A stretch of DNA of 64,000 nucleotides from Candidatus Zixiibacteriota bacterium (lineage in GTDB: Bacteria > Zixibacteria > MSB-5A5 > UBA10806), in assembly GCA_020344055.1 (NCBI GenBank), contig CP070813.1, positions 295,551 through 359,550 of the forward strand, written 5' to 3'. This document shows, one piece after another, positions 109-59,850 of this stretch. The notes below the pieces were generated by a model that made no database searches, had not been told where the DNA came from, and worked only from the letters and a program-made list of their open reading frames with translations. Each line of letters starts with the position of its first letter. Position 1 is the first letter of the stretch. The translations under genes and the position numbers were made by a program.

Positions 109-825
109 ATGAACAATAAAATTATCGGTATTGCCCTCGTTGGAATATTGCTTTCAGCCGTTCCCGTTTCCGCCCAGGGGCAGGGTGATCTCAATTGTAA
201 TGGTTTTATTGACGTGGCTGATTTAATTACTATCATAAATATTCTTGAATACCCGTGCGAAAGAAACCTCATTGAATGTTGGCGGCGAAGCGGCGATGTC
301 GATGGTGATGGATGGCCGCTGACGATTGGCGATATGTACATAATTCCTTATTTTTTGATCAATGGTTATGGAAACTATCCACCCAATTTTCCGAATCACC
401 CCGAATCCGATACGATTTTAATTGAATCGATCGTTACTGTTCCGGGAGACTCTATATCGTTACCCGTCTGGATAAATACCATTGATACGCTCGTCGCCTT
501 CCAGTTCTGGCTCGAAGTAGATACAGACTATGTAGAATTTGATACCATGATCGTTTATGATTATATACCTGTTAGGCAGTCCAACTGTGGGGGAAATATA
601 TACCTTTATACCCTGTTTGCCGGTTATGACGATCCTATCATTCTCCTGCCGGGGAATTACCATGTTGCGGATATTATAGTTAACATAAAGCTCGAAGATG
701 ACGCACGGGTGACCACATACCTTTCATTCTCCTCCGATCCGCCGCGGATATTGTATTCCGGGTTTGCCAGTTATTCCTTTTTCCGGCCGGTCATGATCGA
801 CGCCGAAATACAGATCGTGCCTTAA
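109..825 (+). CDS. Secreted protein with an N-terminal dockerin-like double repeat and a C-terminal cohesin-like beta-sandwich module
   Basis: Signal peptide MNNKIIGIALVGILLSAVPVSAQG. Two EF-hand-like repeats follow (DLNCNGFIDVADLITIINIL and GDVDGDGWPLTIGDMYIIPYF). The rest (VTVPGDSISLPVWINTIDTLVAFQFWLEVDTDYVEF...ADIIVNIKLEDD...YLSFSS) follows the cohesin pattern. RBS ggaga upstream; TAA stop. Confidence 0.6.
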   Translation: MNNKIIGIALVGILLSAVPVSAQGQGDLNCNGFIDVADLITIINILEYPCERNLIECWRRSGDVDGDGWPLTIGDMYIIPYFLINGYGNYPPNFPNHPESDTILIESIVTVPGDSISLPVWINTIDTLVAFQFWLEVDTDYVEFDTMIVYDYIPVRQSNCGGNIYLYTLFAGYDDPIILLPGNYHVADIIVNIKLEDDARVTTYLSFSSDPPRILYSGFASYSFFRPVMIDAEIQIVP

Positions 826-5597: not shown

Positions 5598-8489
5598 ATG
5601 AGGATTCTCACAATCGTTGCGCTGGCATTTTTTCTCGCGGGTACGGCCGTTTCGGGAATGGTAGACCCGGAACTTGAAGCGAGGCTGGAAAATGCCGCCC
5701 CCGATCAGATGTTTGAGACTCTGATCTTTATGAAGGACCAGATCGATCTCGGGGAATTGAAACGGGATCTCCATTTCATAAATGCGACCCGGGCGGAACG
5801 CCACAGACGGGTAATAACGGAGCTGCAGCGTATAGCCACCGAATCCCAGCCCGATATCCTGGCATACTTAACCGATCGAAAGTACACAAGTGCGGTCGGA
5901 GAATTCAGAGGGTTCTGGATATGCAATATGATAGTCGCGGAATTGACGGCCTCCGAGATCTATGCCGTCGCCGCCCGCGATGACGTTGACAAAGTCCACA
6001 GCGATTTCAAGGGAGAATTGATCGAGCCTGTGAAGGTCGGAGGGGCCGATCCTCCGGTCATAAACAGTGTGGAGATCGGCGTCAGGGCCATCAAGGCCGA
6101 CAGTATGTGGGCGCTGGGGTACACCGGCCAGGGGCGGCTGGTCTGCAATATCGATACCGGCGTTGACGGCAACCATATCGCCTTGAGTCAGAGCTGGAGG
6201 GGCGCCAACGGTTATCCCCCGGCGGAGAGCTGGTATGATTCCGCCAATCCCAGCAATACTTTTCCGCATGACGAATACGGTCACGGTACGCATACCATGG
6301 GGACCATATGCGGCAGAAGCGCCAGCGGAACCGATACGGTGGGAGTGGCCATTGACGCCCAGTGGATCGCCTCTCGCGCCGTCGATGTTTCCGGCGGGAA
6401 TATTGCGGCCGCGTTTCAATGGGCCGCCGACCCGGACGGTAATCCCAACACCGTTCATGACGTCCCGGACGCTATCTCGAACTCCTGGGGCTCCATAGGA
6501 AGCTGTCCTCCCAGCTATTACTCGTTGATCGATAACTGCGAGGCCGCGGGGGCGGCGGTGGTGTTCGCCGCCGGGAACGAAGGACCGGGGGCGCAGACGT
6601 TAAGAATCCCCGCCAACAGAATAACCACGCCGTACAACTGCTTCTCGGTGGGGGCGGTAAACGGCGCCAACAGCAGTTACCCCATTGCGTATTTCTCATC
6701 CCGCGGGCCCTCCCAGTGCGACGGCCAAACCATTAAACCGGAAATCGTGGCGCCGGGACTCAACGTGAGATCCTCCACTCCCGGCAACGCCTACTCTTAT
6801 ATGAGCGGAACCTCCATGGCCTGCCCGCACGTGGCCGGCGCCATCGCCCTGTTGCGCCAGGTAAATCCCAACGCCACCGTCGATACCATAAAATGGGCGC
6901 TCATGCAGTCCGCCGCCGACCTCGGAAATCCCGGCGAAGACAATACCTATGGATGGGGAATCATAAACGTCCGCGCCGCCATGGATCTATTGCCCCCCGC
7001 GAACGAACCCTATCTCTTTGTCAGCGCAGCCTACGTGGTCGAACCCAACAACAATTATCCCGATCCGGGCGAAACTATCGACCTTTATATAAGACTCCAG
7101 AATACGGGGATCAGCGTCGATGACGTCGCCGCAGTGATTAGCACCAATGATGCCTATACCACCATAACGTCCGATTCGGTCTTCTACGGCACCGTGGCCG
7201 GAAATGATACATCCGCTACATCCGATCCCTACGTAATGTCTTTTTCAGAGGACACGCCCGTGGGTCATAATGTCGTCTTTGATTTACACATCACCGGGGA
7301 CGGCGGCTATAGCGTTACCAGGAATGTAACGCTTACAATCGGCATGCTGGCCGATCCCGATATAGCCGACCACGATATAGGCAGCGCCCGTTTCACCATC
7401 TCGAATTTCGGCCAGTACGGTCTGGCACCGACCAGCATAAATACTATCTGGAACGGTGTGGGATACAAGATGTCGCCTTACGGTCCCAACTATCTATTCG
7501 AGGGCGCGCTGTTTATCGGCGATGGCCCCACCCGCGTTTCCAACGGCGCCCGCGATGAAAATCAGAATATGGGCGATGATTTTAACGCCGTGACGGATAT
7601 CGTACTCCATGAACCCGGACCTCTCGCCGACCAGGAATATCATACCTCTTTCAACGATCAGAACGCCGCCGAGCCTCTCGGCGTGCTCGTCTCCCAGAAG
7701 TCCTTCGCCTTTTCAACCGCGCCCGATGACGAGTATATCATTACCGAATATACCATCACGAACGCCGGCTTCGACCCGCTGACCGGGGTGCTGGTAGCCC
7801 ACTTTGAAGATTGGGATATTCCGTGGAACACAGCCGACGATATGGTTAATTTCGATAGAAGCAGAAACCTCGGATACCTGTATAACGGCAGCAACTACCG
7901 GGGGCAACAGGTGCTCTCCGATTCGGGGATCTTTTCCTTCATGGCCCTGGATAATGCCGTTCATGTCTATCCGCCCGCTTTTACGCTGTCCGATAAATGG
8001 AGCTATATGAACGCCGGGATAATCGATACCGCCATCACCTCCATAAGGGATTGCTCCATAATAATAACCACCGGCCCATATGATCTCGCGCCGGGCCAGC
8101 AAGCGGTCGCCGCCTTTTCGATTCTCGGCGGAAACTCTCTCGCGGATCTGCAGGCCAACGCCGATGCCGCTATCGCCCGTTACGGCCTCATGACGTCGAT
8201 TGATGATGATTTCGCCGAACTGCCCGAACAGTTTTCTCTCTCTCAGAACTATCCCAACCCGTTTAACGCCAGAACGACCATAAGCTTCTCCGTACCGGTA
8301 TCGGGGCAGGTTCTAATCGAGGCTTTCGACCTGCTTGGCAGAAAAGTCGAGACAATTCTCGATGCCCATCTTGAAGCCGGGAACCATACCGCTCTATGGG
8401 ACTGTTCGAATCTGTCCTCCGGGATATATTTCTACAGACTTACCGCGGGAGATGAATCCGCGGTCAGGAAAATGACTTTAATAAAATAG
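5598..8489 (+). CDS. Subtilisin-like serine protease (peptidase S8) with an N-terminal propeptide and a T9SS C-terminal sorting domain
   Basis: Catalytic triad motifs NIDTGVDGNH, HGTHTMGTICG, GTSMACPHVAGAIALL. Signal peptide MRILTIVALAFFLAGTAVSG. C-terminal LSQNYPNPFNARTTISFSV...GIYFYRLTAG...KMTLIK. RBS gcggaggag upstream. Confidence 0.92.
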   Translation: MRILTIVALAFFLAGTAVSGMVDPELEARLENAAPDQMFETLIFMKDQIDLGELKRDLHFINATRAERHRRVITELQRIATESQPDILAYLTDRKYTSAVGEFRGFWICNMIVAELTASEIYAVAARDDVDKVHSDFKGELIEPVKVGGADPPVINSVEIGVRAIKADSMWALGYTGQGRLVCNIDTGVDGNHIALSQSWRGANGYPPAESWYDSANPSNTFPHDEYGHGTHTMGTICGRSASGTDTVGVAIDAQWIASRAVDVSGGNIAAAFQWAADPDGNPNTVHDVPDAISNSWGSIGSCPPSYYSLIDNCEAAGAAVVFAAGNEGPGAQTLRIPANRITTPYNCFSVGAVNGANSSYPIAYFSSRGPSQCDGQTIKPEIVAPGLNVRSSTPGNAYSYMSGTSMACPHVAGAIALLRQVNPNATVDTIKWALMQSAADLGNPGEDNTYGWGIINVRAAMDLLPPANEPYLFVSAAYVVEPNNNYPDPGETIDLYIRLQNTGISVDDVAAVISTNDAYTTITSDSVFYGTVAGNDTSATSDPYVMSFSEDTPVGHNVVFDLHITGDGGYSVTRNVTLTIGMLADPDIADHDIGSARFTISNFGQYGLAPTSINTIWNGVGYKMSPYGPNYLFEGALFIGDGPTRVSNGARDENQNMGDDFNAVTDIVLHEPGPLADQEYHTSFNDQNAAEPLGVLVSQKSFAFSTAPDDEYIITEYTITNAGFDPLTGVLVAHFEDWDIPWNTADDMVNFDRSRNLGYLYNGSNYRGQQVLSDSGIFSFMALDNAVHVYPPAFTLSDKWSYMNAGIIDTAITSIRDCSIIITTGPYDLAPGQQAVAAFSILGGNSLADLQANADAAIARYGLMTSIDDDFAELPEQFSLSQNYPNPFNARTTISFSVPVSGQVLIEAFDLLGRKVETILDAHLEAGNHTALWDCSNLSSGIYFYRLTAGDESAVRKMTLIK

Positions 8490-44875: not shown

Positions 44876-45017
44876 AACCTTGACAACCTTTTAGATATCA
44901 GTATCTTAAATATATCATCGCGCGCTGTCATCTTTGAAAAATTATTATGTCAATATCGGGTGGGGGATTATTAAGATTCATAGGAAAATAAGTGTTTTAA
45001 AGGGTCGGAGGTGTGTG

Positions 45018-47825
45018 ATGTTTTATTTTCCAGTCCGCAAATCGATTGTTATTCTGTCAACAATGTTTTTATCCGTATTTATTATTACGGCAGCGTTGGC
45101 GCAAAAACCTAAGGTTAAGCTAGAACCGGTCTTGTTTGATAATTTTGAAAGCAGAACTCCCGAAGAGTTGTACGTGCCCGAACACATAACCAAAAAACCC
45201 GGCCACTACACCATCACCGACTGGCAAAACGCCATAGATTCAACCTGGGGATGGGGACGGATTAAATCTCAGAAGCTCGATATTTTTGATTCTGTTTGGA
45301 TGGCAATCGATGGAGAATTCGCCTGCTTTGTTAATCATCCAGATTATTATCCCGGGATGTGGATCGATCTGTACACTCTCTATCGAACGGAGATAGATAC
45401 AGGTAATCCTACATACGGCGTCAGCAGAGGTCGGTTTGCGGCCATCATGAATTACCTGACATTGGCTTTGAAAGAAAGCCATACTGAAGCCTGCGACCGT
45501 GATGTGAATCTTTACACATCTCTTTCACCCGGTGTTCCTCTGTTGGTTCTGGGGCCCTTCGGTGATAACGGACATTTCGGGGCGGGTTTAACCCCCCTTC
45601 CCGACAGCACCTCGCTGGTTTATAGAACCGTGCTGAATCATCCCCTTGGATTAGAGCCCGGTGACATCGTATTGGGTTATGATGGTATCCCCTGGAAAGA
45701 GCTTTATTTCGATCTCATAGACGCCCAGCTTCCTCTATATAGCTATTGGTATGAGGGGAGTTGTGAAAGCGCCTATACCCACGCATGGCTGATGAGCGCG
45801 GGCATGAACTGGCATCTTTTCGACACGCTCGATATCGTAAAATACGGAACCGGCGATACGCTTCATTTATCGGTACAACCATTGATCGGCCAGAACATGA
45901 CTCTTTTCTGCTCGGAACAAATGGACATACCGGGCGTCCCCATGCCGGATTTAAGTCAGGGTATACTCGCAAGTTACGGAGTTATCTCCGGAACCCAGAT
46001 CGGCTACATTTACGTCTGGGGCTGGTATGATGAGGATGTTGAATCACAATTCTATGACGCAGTAAGCGCGTTAGTTAGCAATCCTGATATCACCGGATTA
46101 ATCATAGACCTCAGGTTGAACTGGGGAGGTGAACATCATCTGGCAAATGCTGGATTAAATTTAATCTTCAATACGAAAGAATTAGGATTTGGCTATGGCG
46201 AACGCTGTTCTCCAACTGATCATCTTCTGATGTGTCCTAACGATTTTGCCTATTATCATTATATATACGGATCCGCCAAAGCCTATTTCGATAAGCCAAT
46301 TGCTGTCTTAACAGGTCCTGGTGCGCACAGCGCGGGAGATGTCTTTGCAATTACAATGAAACCGCATCCGATGACAAGGTTCTTTGGAAAGGCGTCGGAA
46401 TCCGCATTTAACGTTCCGGTTTATGTCAGTACTGGATATTCGGATTGGCGTTTTCGCAACGCAATTTGGAATGAGTACATGCTTGATGACCCCTCCAATT
46501 ATCTCACCCATTCCGAATTGGAAATTGATGAGTATATATGGCTTTCTCCATCCGATGTCGCCCAGGGTTTCGATACCGTTGTGGAGAGCGCCAGGAGCTG
46601 GATAAACAGCCAGCAGGGTTTACAGCCAGATATATCTGCCGATTCTACGAGTTATAATGTTACTCTTGATTACGGGGAGATTATGTCTGAGACCTTGATA
46701 ATAAACAATAACGGTAGCCGCACGCTGTTTTACTCTCTAACACCGGAAGTCGATTCCGGAACTGTCTATATGTCGAAAAAACTGCCATCGACCACGGGTC
46801 ATGGGGGTTATGATGATTACGGCTATACCTGGATAGATTCGGATCAGCCGCATGGCCCGGCTTTCAGCTGGGTAGATATTTCCGGGATCGGTACCCCCGT
46901 AAGCCTTGGAGATGATTCGTATGTGGGTCCCATAGATATCGGATTTACCTTCCCATTCTACGGCGACGACCATTCGGAGCTTTATATATGCTCTAACGGT
47001 CTTATAACTTTCGGAGCAGGTTCGGGAGTTTATAATAACACACATATTCCCGGCTCCGGCTCTCCGAATAATTTTGTTGCCCCCTGGTGGGATGATCTTA
47101 ATCCCGCAATCGGGGGAGAAGTTTATTTCCATTCAGATGAAGAACGCTTTATTGTGAGCTTTATAGGAGTTCCCAAATATGGTTATGTAAGTTCTGCCAC
47201 TTTCCAAGCGATACTTTATCCTGATGGTCAAATAGAATTCAATTACCTCAACACCGACCTTGAATACGTAGGTTTCTGGGATTTCTATACTACAACCATC
47301 GGCATAGAAAATTCGGGTGGTTCCGATGGACTCGAGATTTATTATAATGCCCCCTACACTATCGATAGCCTTAGTATTTTAATCAATACCGACTGGCTGG
47401 CCGTGAATCCCCACAGCAGCTACATCGCCCCTGGAGATAATGATACGGCCACAGTAACATTCAGTTCAAAGCATCTCGCCCTGGGGATATATACAGGGGA
47501 TATATATCTCGATTCTAATGATCCTACCGATTCGCTGATTATTATTCCGGTATCGCTTACGGTGACCGGAGGTTGCGATTATGTAACCGGTGATGTCAAC
47601 GGCAGTGATAGCTATAACGGCCTTGATATTACCTATGGCGTCAACTTCTTTAAAGGCGGGAGCGACCCGATGTGTCCTGAATGCGGTCTCTGCCCCGATT
47701 GGCACTACTGTGGCGATGTCAACGGAAGCTGCAGTTACAATGGCTTAGATATTACCTATGGTGTGGCTTATTTCAAGGGCGGCGATGCTCCGGTTCCCTG
47801 CGCCGACTGCCCGCCCATAGATTGA
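45018..47825 (+). CDS. Secreted peptidase S41 (C-terminal processing/tail-specific protease-like) with a dockerin-like Cys-containing C-terminal tail
   Basis: GGAGG 6 nt before the ATG at 45018; signal peptide MFYFPVRKSIVILSTMFLSVFIITAALAQ. S41 motifs GLIIDLRLNWGGEHHLA and PIAVLTGPGAHSAGDVFA. Tail CDYVTGDVNGSDSYNGLDITYGVNFFKGG..CGDVNGSCSYNGLDITYGVAYFKGG..PCADCPPID (47574-47822); TGA stop. The ORF is open from 44934. Confidence 0.7.
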   Translation: MFYFPVRKSIVILSTMFLSVFIITAALAQKPKVKLEPVLFDNFESRTPEELYVPEHITKKPGHYTITDWQNAIDSTWGWGRIKSQKLDIFDSVWMAIDGEFACFVNHPDYYPGMWIDLYTLYRTEIDTGNPTYGVSRGRFAAIMNYLTLALKESHTEACDRDVNLYTSLSPGVPLLVLGPFGDNGHFGAGLTPLPDSTSLVYRTVLNHPLGLEPGDIVLGYDGIPWKELYFDLIDAQLPLYSYWYEGSCESAYTHAWLMSAGMNWHLFDTLDIVKYGTGDTLHLSVQPLIGQNMTLFCSEQMDIPGVPMPDLSQGILASYGVISGTQIGYIYVWGWYDEDVESQFYDAVSALVSNPDITGLIIDLRLNWGGEHHLANAGLNLIFNTKELGFGYGERCSPTDHLLMCPNDFAYYHYIYGSAKAYFDKPIAVLTGPGAHSAGDVFAITMKPHPMTRFFGKASESAFNVPVYVSTGYSDWRFRNAIWNEYMLDDPSNYLTHSELEIDEYIWLSPSDVAQGFDTVVESARSWINSQQGLQPDISADSTSYNVTLDYGEIMSETLIINNNGSRTLFYSLTPEVDSGTVYMSKKLPSTTGHGGYDDYGYTWIDSDQPHGPAFSWVDISGIGTPVSLGDDSYVGPIDIGFTFPFYGDDHSELYICSNGLITFGAGSGVYNNTHIPGSGSPNNFVAPWWDDLNPAIGGEVYFHSDEERFIVSFIGVPKYGYVSSATFQAILYPDGQIEFNYLNTDLEYVGFWDFYTTTIGIENSGGSDGLEIYYNAPYTIDSLSILINTDWLAVNPHSSYIAPGDNDTATVTFSSKHLALGIYTGDIYLDSNDPTDSLIIIPVSLTVTGGCDYVTGDVNGSDSYNGLDITYGVNFFKGGSDPMCPECGLCPDWHYCGDVNGSCSYNGLDITYGVAYFKGGDAPVPCADCPPID

Positions 47826-54776: not shown

Positions 54777-55268
54777 ATGAAGGAATCAATCGTAGGCGAC
54801 CCCATCTTCTGGCCGGGATTAGTCTATTCTCCCATAAATCTTAACGGCCTCCTTTTCGCGTTGGGAACCGTTACCGACGAGATCGGTCTGCTATTCGAGG
54901 AGTTCTCCGAGGATGGATCTCTGGCTGTATGCCGCATGAAAACAAAAGACGGTTGGAGAAAAATCAGAGCTGCCTTTTCAATTAAGAGCTCGGAATTCAA
55001 TCTCACCGAGGATCGGCCGGATTTGCTTATATGCTGGGTGCATGATTCCGATCCCGGAACCGGAAAATTGTCCATACTGGAGCTCTCCGGGATAAGGGGC
55101 CAGCCAAGCTCCAATAATGCCTTGCCCCATAAGCCCTTGGGCGGTCTGGACGGCATATTTTCGGAGGATCCGACTAACGATCTTCTCCACAGGGGAGAAG
55201 CCATCGTCAACTTCGAAGAGACCATACGTCAACTGGACGATCGAATAAAAAAATTGAAAAATGGTTAA
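54777..55268 (+). CDS. Hypothetical protein
   Basis: ORF only; upstream of the cohesin-dockerin paralogs. Confidence 0.35.
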   Translation: MKESIVGDPIFWPGLVYSPINLNGLLFALGTVTDEIGLLFEEFSEDGSLAVCRMKTKDGWRKIRAAFSIKSSEFNLTEDRPDLLICWVHDSDPGTGKLSILELSGIRGQPSSNNALPHKPLGGLDGIFSEDPTNDLLHRGEAIVNFEETIRQLDDRIKKLKNG

Positions 55269-55446: not shown

Positions 55447-57645
55447 ATGCTGGGAAACAGGGATATTATGAAGTTTATCGGCCTTACGGTTTTATGTTTG
55501 GTTTTGGGGACCTTTTCGGCAGTCAAGGCTCAGGATCCCGGAAATCCTGATTCCTTGATAATCGGAAACCTTGACGGTACTCCAATTTTGGCCGGGCTTG
55601 ACGTACAGATCGTAGTTCCGGTCTATTTGAAAACGGACGATTCTGTTGCTTTTATGCATCTCCCGGTAGCTACCGATAATGACTATATAGCGTCTCGGGA
55701 TGGCGGAACCTTTTATGAACCGCTTTCGCTTTGGGACGATGTCAGTTTCCTGGCCCCGGATTCGAACAGCCCTTCCGCGGGCTATACCAGCCAGAGTATT
55801 CTGGGATTCGCTTTTTTGGCGCCTCCGGAAGATCCGCAGAATTATCTTTATACGAATTACCAGTGGTGGCATATAGCCGATTATCATATGACTACGACTG
55901 ACGATATTTCTGTCTTGGGAGATACAACCTATACGCTTGAGGGTATTAATCCTGCAAACGGCGATATGCTCATGGGTTTGCCGGATGGCGTCATCGTCGT
56001 TATCCCTCAGACGATCTGGGGCGGGATATATTTTCCGCCTAACACCCCCCCGGTCTATACCGAGCCCTCCCCGGGCACCCTGCCTATAAACGAGCAATTC
56101 GGCATATGCCTGACCGTAACGGTCACCGACGAGGATGACGATAACCTTGTTCTGACCGTGGATTTCGGTCCCACCGACTATACTTTTGAAGAACTCGTCA
56201 ATATCCCCGGAGAAATATCTTATGAATTCTGCTGGTTTCCTCAATCCGGGATGGCGGGTACGTATCCGCTGACATTTACGGTTAATGACGGCGCCGGGGG
56301 GGTCATTGACCTCGATATTATCCTCGAAGTTACCCCGGCACAACTCATTATACACAGCGATTCGACTCTTCCCGGAGCCAACGTTTCTTTGCCGGTATCG
56401 CTCAACAACCTGGGTATTTCGTCGGCCGTGGGAGCCTTCGAAATTCTCATCGGATGGAATCTTAATGCTATGTCTTTAAATAGCGTGATTCGATCCGGCA
56501 GAACGGCTCCTTTCGAGTATTTCCATGTCAATCCCAATAGCGGCGGTGATGGAACCGTCAGGATTGTCGGAATCGCGGATTTGAGCTTCGGCGATATTAC
56601 GCCTCCTCTCCAGCCTGATACCGGAGCCATATTCTTTATCGATTTCTCCGTGTCCAACGATGAAAGCCTGATCGGCGTGGATCTACCTGTTGAATTCATC
56701 AATCTGGATCCGGCCGATAACACGGTGGCGGATTCGACCGGATACCTCCTCGTTCACCCGGAATTGACCGATGGCGTGGTCAGCGTCATCGGCCCTGACG
56801 ACGTTTTGACGGGCGATATCAATCTTAACGGTTGGCCCTATGAGGTCGGCGATGTTGTGCTTTTCGTCAACCATATCATTAATCCCTCCGCGTACCCCTT
56901 TAACGCAATTCAGAGAGAAGCCTCGGATATCAATGCCGACGGTATTCCTGAAACCATAGCCGACCTGGTCTTATTGATAAATATCGTAAACGGTAATGTG
57001 CCTCCTCCGAAAATCGAACCGTCGGGCGGAGATGTGATTGTGACCGTAACCCCATCGGGTGAGACTGGTTATATAACCGCCACCAGCAGCGTCGATCTCG
57101 GCGCCGTCTTGCTGAAGCTTTCTCATAATTCAATCCGCGATTTGACCGTAAGACCGACGGGCGATTTAACGGTTGTCTTCAACGACGACGACGGTGAAAT
57201 AATCGTTCTGGCTTATTTACCGATGGGCGGGGGAATTCCGGCCGGGGATATCAATCTCTTCGAAATAGGCGGAATGGGAGAGGATTTCGAAATTGTCGAA
57301 ATCGCCGCCTCTGATTCAAGAGGCAGCCTTTTGAGCGTGGTCTCGCGGATCGCAGCGGCTCTTCCGCAGAAATATGAACTGGCTCAGAACTATCCCAATC
57401 CGTTTAACGCCGCCACCAGGATCAGATTCGCTTTGCCGGAAGCCCGGATGACCACTATCGAGGTTTTCAACATTTCCGGCCAGAGAGTTGGCACGCTTAT
57501 TGATAGATATTTGGAGGCGGGAAAATATGATATAACCTGGAACGGGATTGGAGATAACGGCAAATCCGTCTCGTCAGGAGTGTATTTTTATAGACTAAGT
57601 ACCGATTCCAGCTCAATTACGAGGAAGATGACGCTTTTAAAGTAA
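55447..57645 (+). CDS. Secreted multidomain protein: cohesin-like module(s) + dockerin module + T9SS C-terminal sorting domain
   Basis: Signal peptide MKFIGLTVLCLVLGTFSAVKAQ. Cohesin pattern LPGANVSLPVSLNNLGISSAVGAFEILIGWNLNAMSLNSV...GTVRIVGIADLS...GAIFFIDFSVSND. Dockerin double repeat GDINLNGWPYEVGDVVLFVNHII...SDINADGIPETIADLVLLINIVNG. C-terminal LAQNYPNPFNAATRIRFALP...GVYFYRL...KMTLLK. Confidence 0.75.
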   Translation: MLGNRDIMKFIGLTVLCLVLGTFSAVKAQDPGNPDSLIIGNLDGTPILAGLDVQIVVPVYLKTDDSVAFMHLPVATDNDYIASRDGGTFYEPLSLWDDVSFLAPDSNSPSAGYTSQSILGFAFLAPPEDPQNYLYTNYQWWHIADYHMTTTDDISVLGDTTYTLEGINPANGDMLMGLPDGVIVVIPQTIWGGIYFPPNTPPVYTEPSPGTLPINEQFGICLTVTVTDEDDDNLVLTVDFGPTDYTFEELVNIPGEISYEFCWFPQSGMAGTYPLTFTVNDGAGGVIDLDIILEVTPAQLIIHSDSTLPGANVSLPVSLNNLGISSAVGAFEILIGWNLNAMSLNSVIRSGRTAPFEYFHVNPNSGGDGTVRIVGIADLSFGDITPPLQPDTGAIFFIDFSVSNDESLIGVDLPVEFINLDPADNTVADSTGYLLVHPELTDGVVSVIGPDDVLTGDINLNGWPYEVGDVVLFVNHIINPSAYPFNAIQREASDINADGIPETIADLVLLINIVNGNVPPPKIEPSGGDVIVTVTPSGETGYITATSSVDLGAVLLKLSHNSIRDLTVRPTGDLTVVFNDDDGEIIVLAYLPMGGGIPAGDINLFEIGGMGEDFEIVEIAASDSRGSLLSVVSRIAAALPQKYELAQNYPNPFNAATRIRFALPEARMTTIEVFNISGQRVGTLIDRYLEAGKYDITWNGIGDNGKSVSSGVYFYRLSTDSSSITRKMTLLK

Positions 57646-57660
57646 AAGGGGATCGAAATA

Positions 57661-59850
57661 ATGAACGTCAAAGGGTTGCACATTTTGGCAATTGTTGTAG
57701 CCCTGATGATGCCGGGGGAAGCATCGGGACAGGATCCTGATCTACAGGATTCGCTTATTATCGGTAATTTTAATGGATCCGTTATACCGGTGGGGCTTAA
57801 CCAGGAAATCGTTCTTCCCGTATGGATAAAGACCGATGACTCGGTAACATTCTTTCATACTCCTCTGGCGACGGATAATAATTATATAGTCTTGAGACTC
57901 GGGGGCGGGTTATATGAACCTCTGAGTTTATGGGATGAGGTCGGTTTTCTTACGCCCAATCCCAATTCCCCGTCGCCGGGCATGACCAGTCAGAGTATCC
58001 TCGGATTCGCCTATCTTTTCGATCCGCGGGATCCTCAGAATTTCCTTTATACCGATTACGAATGGTGGCATGTTGCCGATTTCCATATGCTGACCACCAG
58101 CGACACCACGGCCATAGGAGATACCGTTTGTCTGATTGAGGGTTTCAACCCGGCAAACGGAGGGTTGCTCTGGGGGATTCCCGACGGAGTGACCCAGATA
58201 GTTCCCGCCGCCATATACCCCTGTCTGTATTTTTCAGATAACGCGCCTCCGGAATTCAGTCAACCTGTTCCCGGAACGGAGTTTCTTGTAAATAACGAGT
58301 TTCCAATTAACTTTCTCGTTATAGCCACCGACGCGGATAATCACGTGATTTCGATCACCGTTTATTTTCCCGAGGATGGCGCTCAGTTCGACACCGTTTT
58401 CATGGCGCCGGGATATTCGAGTTATATGTTCAGCTGGTTGCCCGACTTTGAGGATACCGGCCAATTCATCGCCACCTTTACGGCCGACGATAATCATGGA
58501 GGTGTGGTAAACCTGGATGTCGCCATCAATGTCTCGAGGTCTATTTTGCAGGTCGACGAGGTAAGCGCCTTCCCCGGCATGGACGTGTCCGTTCCCGTTA
58601 ATATCATAAATCCGGGGGAAACCTCCTATATAGGCGGGTTCGATATTCTCCTGCAATATGGAATTCCCGAAATTATAGATCTTTTGAGCGTCGTGCGGGG
58701 ACCGCTGGTTGAAAGCTGGGAATATTTCCACGTGACTCTCGGCGACACCTCGACTATCAGAATAACCGGAATCGCGGACATTTACGGCAACGGAAACATG
58801 ATTCCGCCGGGCGAGGGGCCGATCGCCTTTCTCAATTTCGAGATTTCCGGCGACAGCGTTTATGTAGGCCATTACGCGGAGATAAATTTTATTTACGCGG
58901 ACGGTAACGATAACACTATTTCCGACAGCACCGGGTATCTGCTCATCCATCCCGACGTTGACAGCGGCTGGGTATACAACCAGGATCCCAGCAACGTCCT
59001 CATTGGCGATATAAATTTAAACGAAATAGCCTGGGAGATTTCAGATGCCGTGCTCCTGGTAAACCATATCATCGCCCCCCTTCAATTTCCGTTTAATTAT
59101 GTTCAGATGCTGGCCTCCGATACGAACCGCGACGGGGTTCCGGCGACCGTGCCCGATCTCATATATATAATCAGCGTTATAAACGGCTATATCATCCCCC
59201 CTCGAATAAATTACGAAAATGAGACTTATGCCTCCGTGGTCGCGGAATTCGATGAGATTGACGCTGAAAAGCTGATTTTCAGGTACGAATCATCCATACC
59301 GGCCGGCGGAATTTTAATGAGGTTGGATCATGGCCGGAATGAAATCAGGTCGCTTTCCACAAATACCGGCATGGATCTCCTCTCCGACGACGAAAGTGGA
59401 ATCCTGTCGGTGATGCTTTTGGATTACGACGGCGGCGTCATTCTGCCCGGGGAAGAGATTTTTGAGATGACCGTTTCCGATGGATCCGTTCCCATTGTAA
59501 CCGAGCTGCAGATCTCCGATCAGTACGGGAATTTCATACCGGCCGGATTGAGTCCGGTTTCAAGCATCCCGGAGGGATTCACGCTTTACGGAGCCTACCC
59601 CAACCCGTTCAATTCCTCCACCACCATCAAATTCTCGCTTCCTCAAAAGACCGATGTCGACCTTTCCATATATAATATGCTGGGGCAACTGGTGAAATCG
59701 TTCAGGTTCGAGAATATGAATTCGGGCGAACGCTCTATAAGCTGGGACGGCTCCGGCGACTCCGGCGACGAAGTATCTTCGGGCGTATACCTTTATCGTA
59801 TCACCGCCGGCGGATACGAAGCGGCGTCCCGTTTGACCCTTTTGAAATAA
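57661..59850 (+). CDS. Paralog: cohesin-like + dockerin + T9SS C-terminal sorting domain protein
   Basis: Signal peptide MNVKGLHILAIVVALMMPGEASGQ. Cohesin pattern FPGMDVSVPVNIINPGETSYIGGFDILLQYGIPEIIDLLSV...IRITGIADIYG...GPIAFLNFEISGD. Dockerin GDINLNEIAWEISDAVLLVNHII...SDTNRDGVPATVPDLIYIISVING. C-terminal YPNPFNSSTTIKFSLP...GVYLYRITAG...RLTLLK. 16 nt downstream of its paralog. Confidence 0.75.
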   Translation: MNVKGLHILAIVVALMMPGEASGQDPDLQDSLIIGNFNGSVIPVGLNQEIVLPVWIKTDDSVTFFHTPLATDNNYIVLRLGGGLYEPLSLWDEVGFLTPNPNSPSPGMTSQSILGFAYLFDPRDPQNFLYTDYEWWHVADFHMLTTSDTTAIGDTVCLIEGFNPANGGLLWGIPDGVTQIVPAAIYPCLYFSDNAPPEFSQPVPGTEFLVNNEFPINFLVIATDADNHVISITVYFPEDGAQFDTVFMAPGYSSYMFSWLPDFEDTGQFIATFTADDNHGGVVNLDVAINVSRSILQVDEVSAFPGMDVSVPVNIINPGETSYIGGFDILLQYGIPEIIDLLSVVRGPLVESWEYFHVTLGDTSTIRITGIADIYGNGNMIPPGEGPIAFLNFEISGDSVYVGHYAEINFIYADGNDNTISDSTGYLLIHPDVDSGWVYNQDPSNVLIGDINLNEIAWEISDAVLLVNHIIAPLQFPFNYVQMLASDTNRDGVPATVPDLIYIISVINGYIIPPRINYENETYASVVAEFDEIDAEKLIFRYESSIPAGGILMRLDHGRNEIRSLSTNTGMDLLSDDESGILSVMLLDYDGGVILPGEEIFEMTVSDGSVPIVTELQISDQYGNFIPAGLSPVSSIPEGFTLYGAYPNPFNSSTTIKFSLPQKTDVDLSIYNMLGQLVKSFRFENMNSGERSISWDGSGDSGDEVSSGVYLYRITAGGYEAASRLTLLK

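What the first reader, a model, noticed from the sequence alone, without database searches (positions are those of the whole stretch)
55447..59850. Tandem paralogs that each combine a cohesin module, a dockerin module and a T9SS anchoring domain
Both proteins contain, in order, a signal peptide, a cohesin-type beta-sandwich, a canonical two-repeat dockerin and a T9SS C-terminal sorting domain (NYPNPFN...YFYRL). The cohesin shows the conserved ...VS(L/V)PV.L.N......GAFEILI...N.. core. The dockerin repeats are GDINLNGW...DVVLFVNHII and SDINADGI...DLVLLINIVNG.

A protein holding both halves of the cohesin-dockerin pair and a T9SS anchor could polymerise head to tail or act as a cell-bound scaffold for dockerin-tailed proteins. 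That would be a cellulosome-like architecture anchored through T9SS rather than through SLH or sortase. No glycoside hydrolases are nearby, which argues for a non-cellulolytic adhesive or proteolytic assembly.
Basis: partly seen in the sequence, partly recalled or inferred. Interest (0 to 1): 0.88.

Follow-up and report, generated by a model that had tools for sequence, protein, structure and literature searches.

The report
Surface proteins with cohesins plus dockerin
Two neighbouring genes of an uncultured Zixibacteria genome encode non-enzymatic secreted proteins that each carry two cohesin-fold modules (one invisible to sequence searches), a dockerin-like module and a type IX secretion tail. 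This looks like a cell-surface protein-assembly kit, similar to one already proposed for a related phylum, and its binding partners are untested.

Summary
ORFs 55447-57645 and 57661-59850 are full-length paralogs (42% identity). Each has a signal peptide, a cohesin, a dockerin-like module and a T9SS type A tail. Three corrections apply.

1. The dockerin is not canonical. It falls below the Pfam threshold and both calcium loops have 13 residues instead of 12. A family profile mostly finds solved dockerins.
3. An Ig module and an unassigned beta-sandwich (D5) are also present.

D1 defines a family of at least 310 clusters, including arrays of up to five copies. The cohesin-dockerin-D5-tail cassette recurs in Zixibacteria, Ignavibacteria and Calditrichaeota. 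A second dockerin+cohesin family sits at 109-825.

No dockerin-bearing enzyme is in the window. Binding between modules is inferred, not shown. A T9SS-anchored cohesin scaffold was already proposed for Cloacimonadota, and a dockerin that binds its own protein's cohesin is known from R. bromii Amy4.

Verdict: real and moderately interesting, a new variant of a known kind.

The parts
55447..57645 (+). ORF A, 732 aa: signal peptide, cohesin-fold D1, Ig D2, cohesin D3, dockerin D4, beta-sandwich D5, T9SS CTD
   Evidence: ORF list. Identical to NCBI protein P0001, 'T9SS type A sorting domain-containing protein [Candidatus Zixiibacteriota]'. AlphaFold model with pLDDT 85.3.
55447..55530 (+). ORF A signal peptide (res 1-28, ...SAVKA|QDPG)
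   Evidence: Read from the sequence. N-terminal helix 3-23 in the model. Q29-D30-P31 are nearly invariant at the start of the mature protein.
55531..56040 (+). ORF A module D1 (res 29-198): sequence-cryptic cohesin fold
56041..56337 (+). ORF A module D2 (res 199-297): Ig-like (Big_9 / cadherin-like)
   Evidence: Pfam Big_9 at 21.2 bits, below the cutoff of 23.6, but hit in 37 of 49 family members. Weak profile hits to cadherin-23.
56338..56790 (+). ORF A module D3 (res 298-448): cohesin
56791..57006 (+). ORF A module D4 (res 449-520): dockerin-like, two 13-residue Ca loops (D457-D469 and D494-D506), each followed by a helix
57007..57366 (+). ORF A module D5 (res 521-640): beta-sandwich with no family assignment. 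It is the least conserved module and travels with the dockerin in relatives.
   Evidence: Secondary structure from the model. No Pfam or PDB sequence hit. 20.5% identity between A and B. D5 follows D4 in L004-L007 and weakly in L009.
57367..57645 (+). ORF A T9SS type A C-terminal sorting domain (res 641-732)
   Evidence: TIGR04183 40.8 bits (cutoff 23), PF18962 30.5 (cutoff 27), FlgD_ig 33.6.
57661..59850 (+). ORF B, 729 aa: paralog with the same six modules
   Evidence: Identical to P0061.
57730..58242 (+). ORF B D1 (res 24-194): cohesin fold, by homology to ORF A D1
   Evidence: D1 HMM E 2.5e-89. The fold was shown for ORF A D1.
58243..58536 (+). ORF B D2 (res 195-292): Ig-like
   Evidence: D2 HMM E 3.7e-35.
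58537..58983 (+). ORF B D3 (res 293-441): cohesin
   Evidence: Pfam Cohesin 24.7 bits, cutoff 24.1, residues 296-423.
58984..59205 (+). ORF B D4 (res 442-515): dockerin-like. The first loop reads DINLNE, with E in place of the usual G at loop position 6.
   Evidence: D4 HMM E 5e-36 and small-family dockerin HMM E 2.2e-9. Alignment.
59206..59571 (+). ORF B D5 (res 516-637): beta-sandwich, unassigned
   Evidence: D5 HMM E 1.2e-33.
59572..59850 (+). ORF B T9SS type A C-terminal sorting domain
   Evidence: TIGR04183 44.7 bits, PF18962 37.3 bits.
109..825 (+). Separate small protein (238 aa): signal peptide, dockerin (res ~25-92), cohesin-like module (res ~96-238), no CTD. It is a candidate partner, 55 kb away.
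   Evidence: Family profile hits solved dockerin 5m2o_B at E 5.5e-8. Pfam Cohesin hits 17 of 22 members, Dockerin_1 7 of 22 and Por_Secre_tail 13 of 22. Its dockerin HMM hits ORF A at E 4.8e-14 and ORF B at 8.3e-10. Two paralogs lie on the same 3.83-Mb contig.
54777..55268 (+). Conserved small ORF (163 aa, no signal peptide, no family) directly upstream of the pair. Any link to the system is unknown.
   Evidence: 49% identity in L002 and 31% in L001 at the same position. Also present in L085.

Best explanation
ORF A and ORF B are non-catalytic cargo proteins of the type IX secretion system in a Zixibacteria bacterium. The proposed pathway has three steps.
1. Sec export uses the N-terminal signal peptide.
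2. The C-terminal type A sorting domain takes the protein across the outer membrane.
3. By analogy with characterised T9SS cargo, the sorting domain is then cleaved and the protein is attached to the cell surface. That would leave the variable D5 module nearest the cell and the highly conserved D1 cohesin-fold module at the tip.

Each mature protein would display two cohesin-fold modules (D1, D3) and one calcium-loop dockerin (D4). I propose that these act as adaptor or connector subunits of a surface protein network held together by cohesin-dockerin contacts. The dockerin of one molecule would bind a cohesin of another: A, B, the small dockerin-cohesin proteins such as ORF 109-825, D1-only anchored proteins, or multi-D1 scaffoldin-like proteins. 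The result would link T9SS cargo into homo- or hetero-oligomers.

The purpose is more likely surface organisation, adhesion or aggregation than polysaccharide degradation.

Shown here: the module folds, the paralogy, the T9SS tail, and the recurrence and co-occurrence of the modules. Inferred: secretion and anchoring, calcium binding, and every binding event.
For: Architecture:
- Cohesin D3.
- Cohesin-fold D1.
- Dockerin D4, with invariant loop residues D457, N459, D469, N496 and D506.
- CTD above the curated cutoffs.

A system rather than a one-off:
- A second family, SP-dockerin-cohesin(-CTD), occurs in the same window and genome, and its dockerin is homologous.
- The D1 module is found in 310 representative clusters. 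22 of the top 150 have 2-5 copies, including five tandem copies in P0144 of the sister genome CP070742.1.
- Pfam Dockerin_1 was found in 5 of 9 large D1-bearing proteins.
- The sister genome has a third gene, SP-D1-CTD, right after A-B.
- The D3-D4-D5-CTD cassette sits on unrelated passenger regions in three phyla.

Other support:
- D1 (59.5%) and D4 (51.4%) are the modules most conserved between the paralogs, as expected for modules with conserved partners.
- Precedents exist: the Amy4 dockerin binds its own cohesin (PMC4611034), and a CTD-anchored cohesin scaffoldin was proposed in Cloacimonadota (PMC8542988).
Against:
- The dockerin is below the Pfam threshold in both window proteins.
- Its Ca loops are one residue longer than canonical, so calcium binding and cohesin recognition are assumptions.
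- D1 is a cohesin by predicted fold only. No sequence or profile link to cohesins was found.
- D3 and D4 are joined by only about 9 residues, and the junction is modelled confidently. That fits a fixed intramolecular didomain as well as it fits assembly in trans.
- No dockerin-bearing enzyme or other cargo is in the window.
- T9SS machinery genes were not identified among the ORFs scanned, and nothing is published on T9SS in Zixibacteria in the library searched.
- Some type A CTD cargo is released rather than anchored (general knowledge).
Confidence: 0.45

Rival explanations
1. The cohesin D3 and the dockerin D4 form a fixed intramolecular pair. The dockerin packs on its own cohesin, so D3-D4-D5 is a rigid stalk that spaces a passenger region from the outer membrane. 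Here the passenger is D1-D2. No intermolecular network forms through D3 or D4, and only D1, if anything, binds a partner.
For: D3 and D4 always travel together and in the same order, as a cassette with D5 and the CTD on unrelated passengers in three phyla. In ORF A, ORF B and L004 the linker is only about 9 residues. The D3-D4 junction is modelled with pLDDT 85-91, whereas the D4-D5 junction drops to 64.
Against: In L005-L009 about 55-70 extra residues separate D3 and D4, so the tight junction is not universal. Dockerins homologous to D4 also occur away from a D3-type cohesin, for example N-terminal in the ORF 109-825 family and after D1 in P0150.
Confidence: 0.25
2. The modules are only fold relatives of cohesin and dockerin and do not bind each other. 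The proteins would be ordinary T9SS surface adhesins. The beta-sandwiches (D1, D2, D3, D5) would form a stalk or bind a non-protein ligand such as a polysaccharide, a mineral or another cell. The dockerin-like segment would be a calcium-stabilised structural element.
For: - Many non-cellulosomal cohesin- and dockerin-like modules have no known partner (own knowledge of Peer et al. 2009, FEMS Microbiol Lett 291:1; the paper could not be opened).
- D1 has no sequence similarity to cohesins.
- The neighbours are other T9SS surface proteins with LVIVD propellers.
- The non-canonical 13-residue loops may have changed function.
Against: Cohesin-fold and dockerin modules co-occur repeatedly within single proteins and genomes in at least three architectures. 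That is hard to explain if they are functionally unrelated. The dockerin loop residues are strictly conserved. Arrays of D1 resemble scaffoldins.
Confidence: 0.25
3. It is a true cellulosome-like enzyme-displaying scaffold. Dockerin-tailed hydrolases or proteases encoded elsewhere in the genome would dock onto D1 and D3 of the anchored A and B proteins.
For: This was proposed for Cloacimonadota, where GH18, GH57, S8 and C25 enzymes carry dockerins (PMC8542988). Dockerin+CTD proteins with beta-helix or propeller passengers exist in Ignavibacteriae and Bacteroidetes MAGs.
Against: - None of the T9SS-tailed enzymes in the window (S8 subtilase 5598-8489, S41 peptidase 44934-47825) has a dockerin.
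- The dockerin-bearing relatives found carry their own CTD. They would be anchored themselves rather than recruited as free enzymes.
- No GH or CBM was found in the ORFs scanned.
Confidence: 0.1

Closest known systems
Predicted T9SS-CTD-anchored scaffoldin system of Candidatus Stygibacter (Cloacimonadota), Williams et al. 2021 (PMC8542988)
   Same: It is an FCB-group bacterium. A cohesin-bearing non-catalytic protein ends in a T9SS C-terminal domain, and dockerin modules sit on other secreted proteins. Like this case, it is purely a genomic inference.
   Different: That scaffoldin is 3,755 aa, with tandem cohesins and CBM2/CBM3 and no dockerin on the same chain. Its dockerins sit on enzymes (GH18, GH57, S8, C25). 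Here each 730-aa protein carries two cohesin-fold modules plus its own dockerin, no CBM, and no dockerin-bearing enzyme is seen nearby.
Ruminococcus bromii Amy4 (amylosome), Ze et al. 2015 (PMC4611034)
   Same: One polypeptide carries both a cohesin and a dockerin. The dockerin was shown to recognise the protein's own cohesin, giving self-aggregation.
   Different: Amy4 is a Gram-positive GH13 amylase, and its cell attachment runs through a ScaE-like cell-wall-anchored scaffoldin. A and B are non-catalytic, have two cohesin-fold modules and carry a T9SS tail.
Adaptor scaffoldins of cellulosomes, e.g. R. flavefaciens ScaC and A. cellulolyticus ScaB (solved modules 5lxv, 4uyp)
   Different: They belong to Firmicutes cellulosomes with dockerin-bearing glycoside hydrolases and are anchored by sortase or SLH. 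Here there is no GH context, the tail is T9SS, and the dockerin loops have 13 residues.
Non-cellulosomal cohesin/dockerin proteins of Archaeoglobus fulgidus (cohesin structure 2xdh)
   Different: They are archaeal, have no T9SS, and their biological role is likewise unknown.

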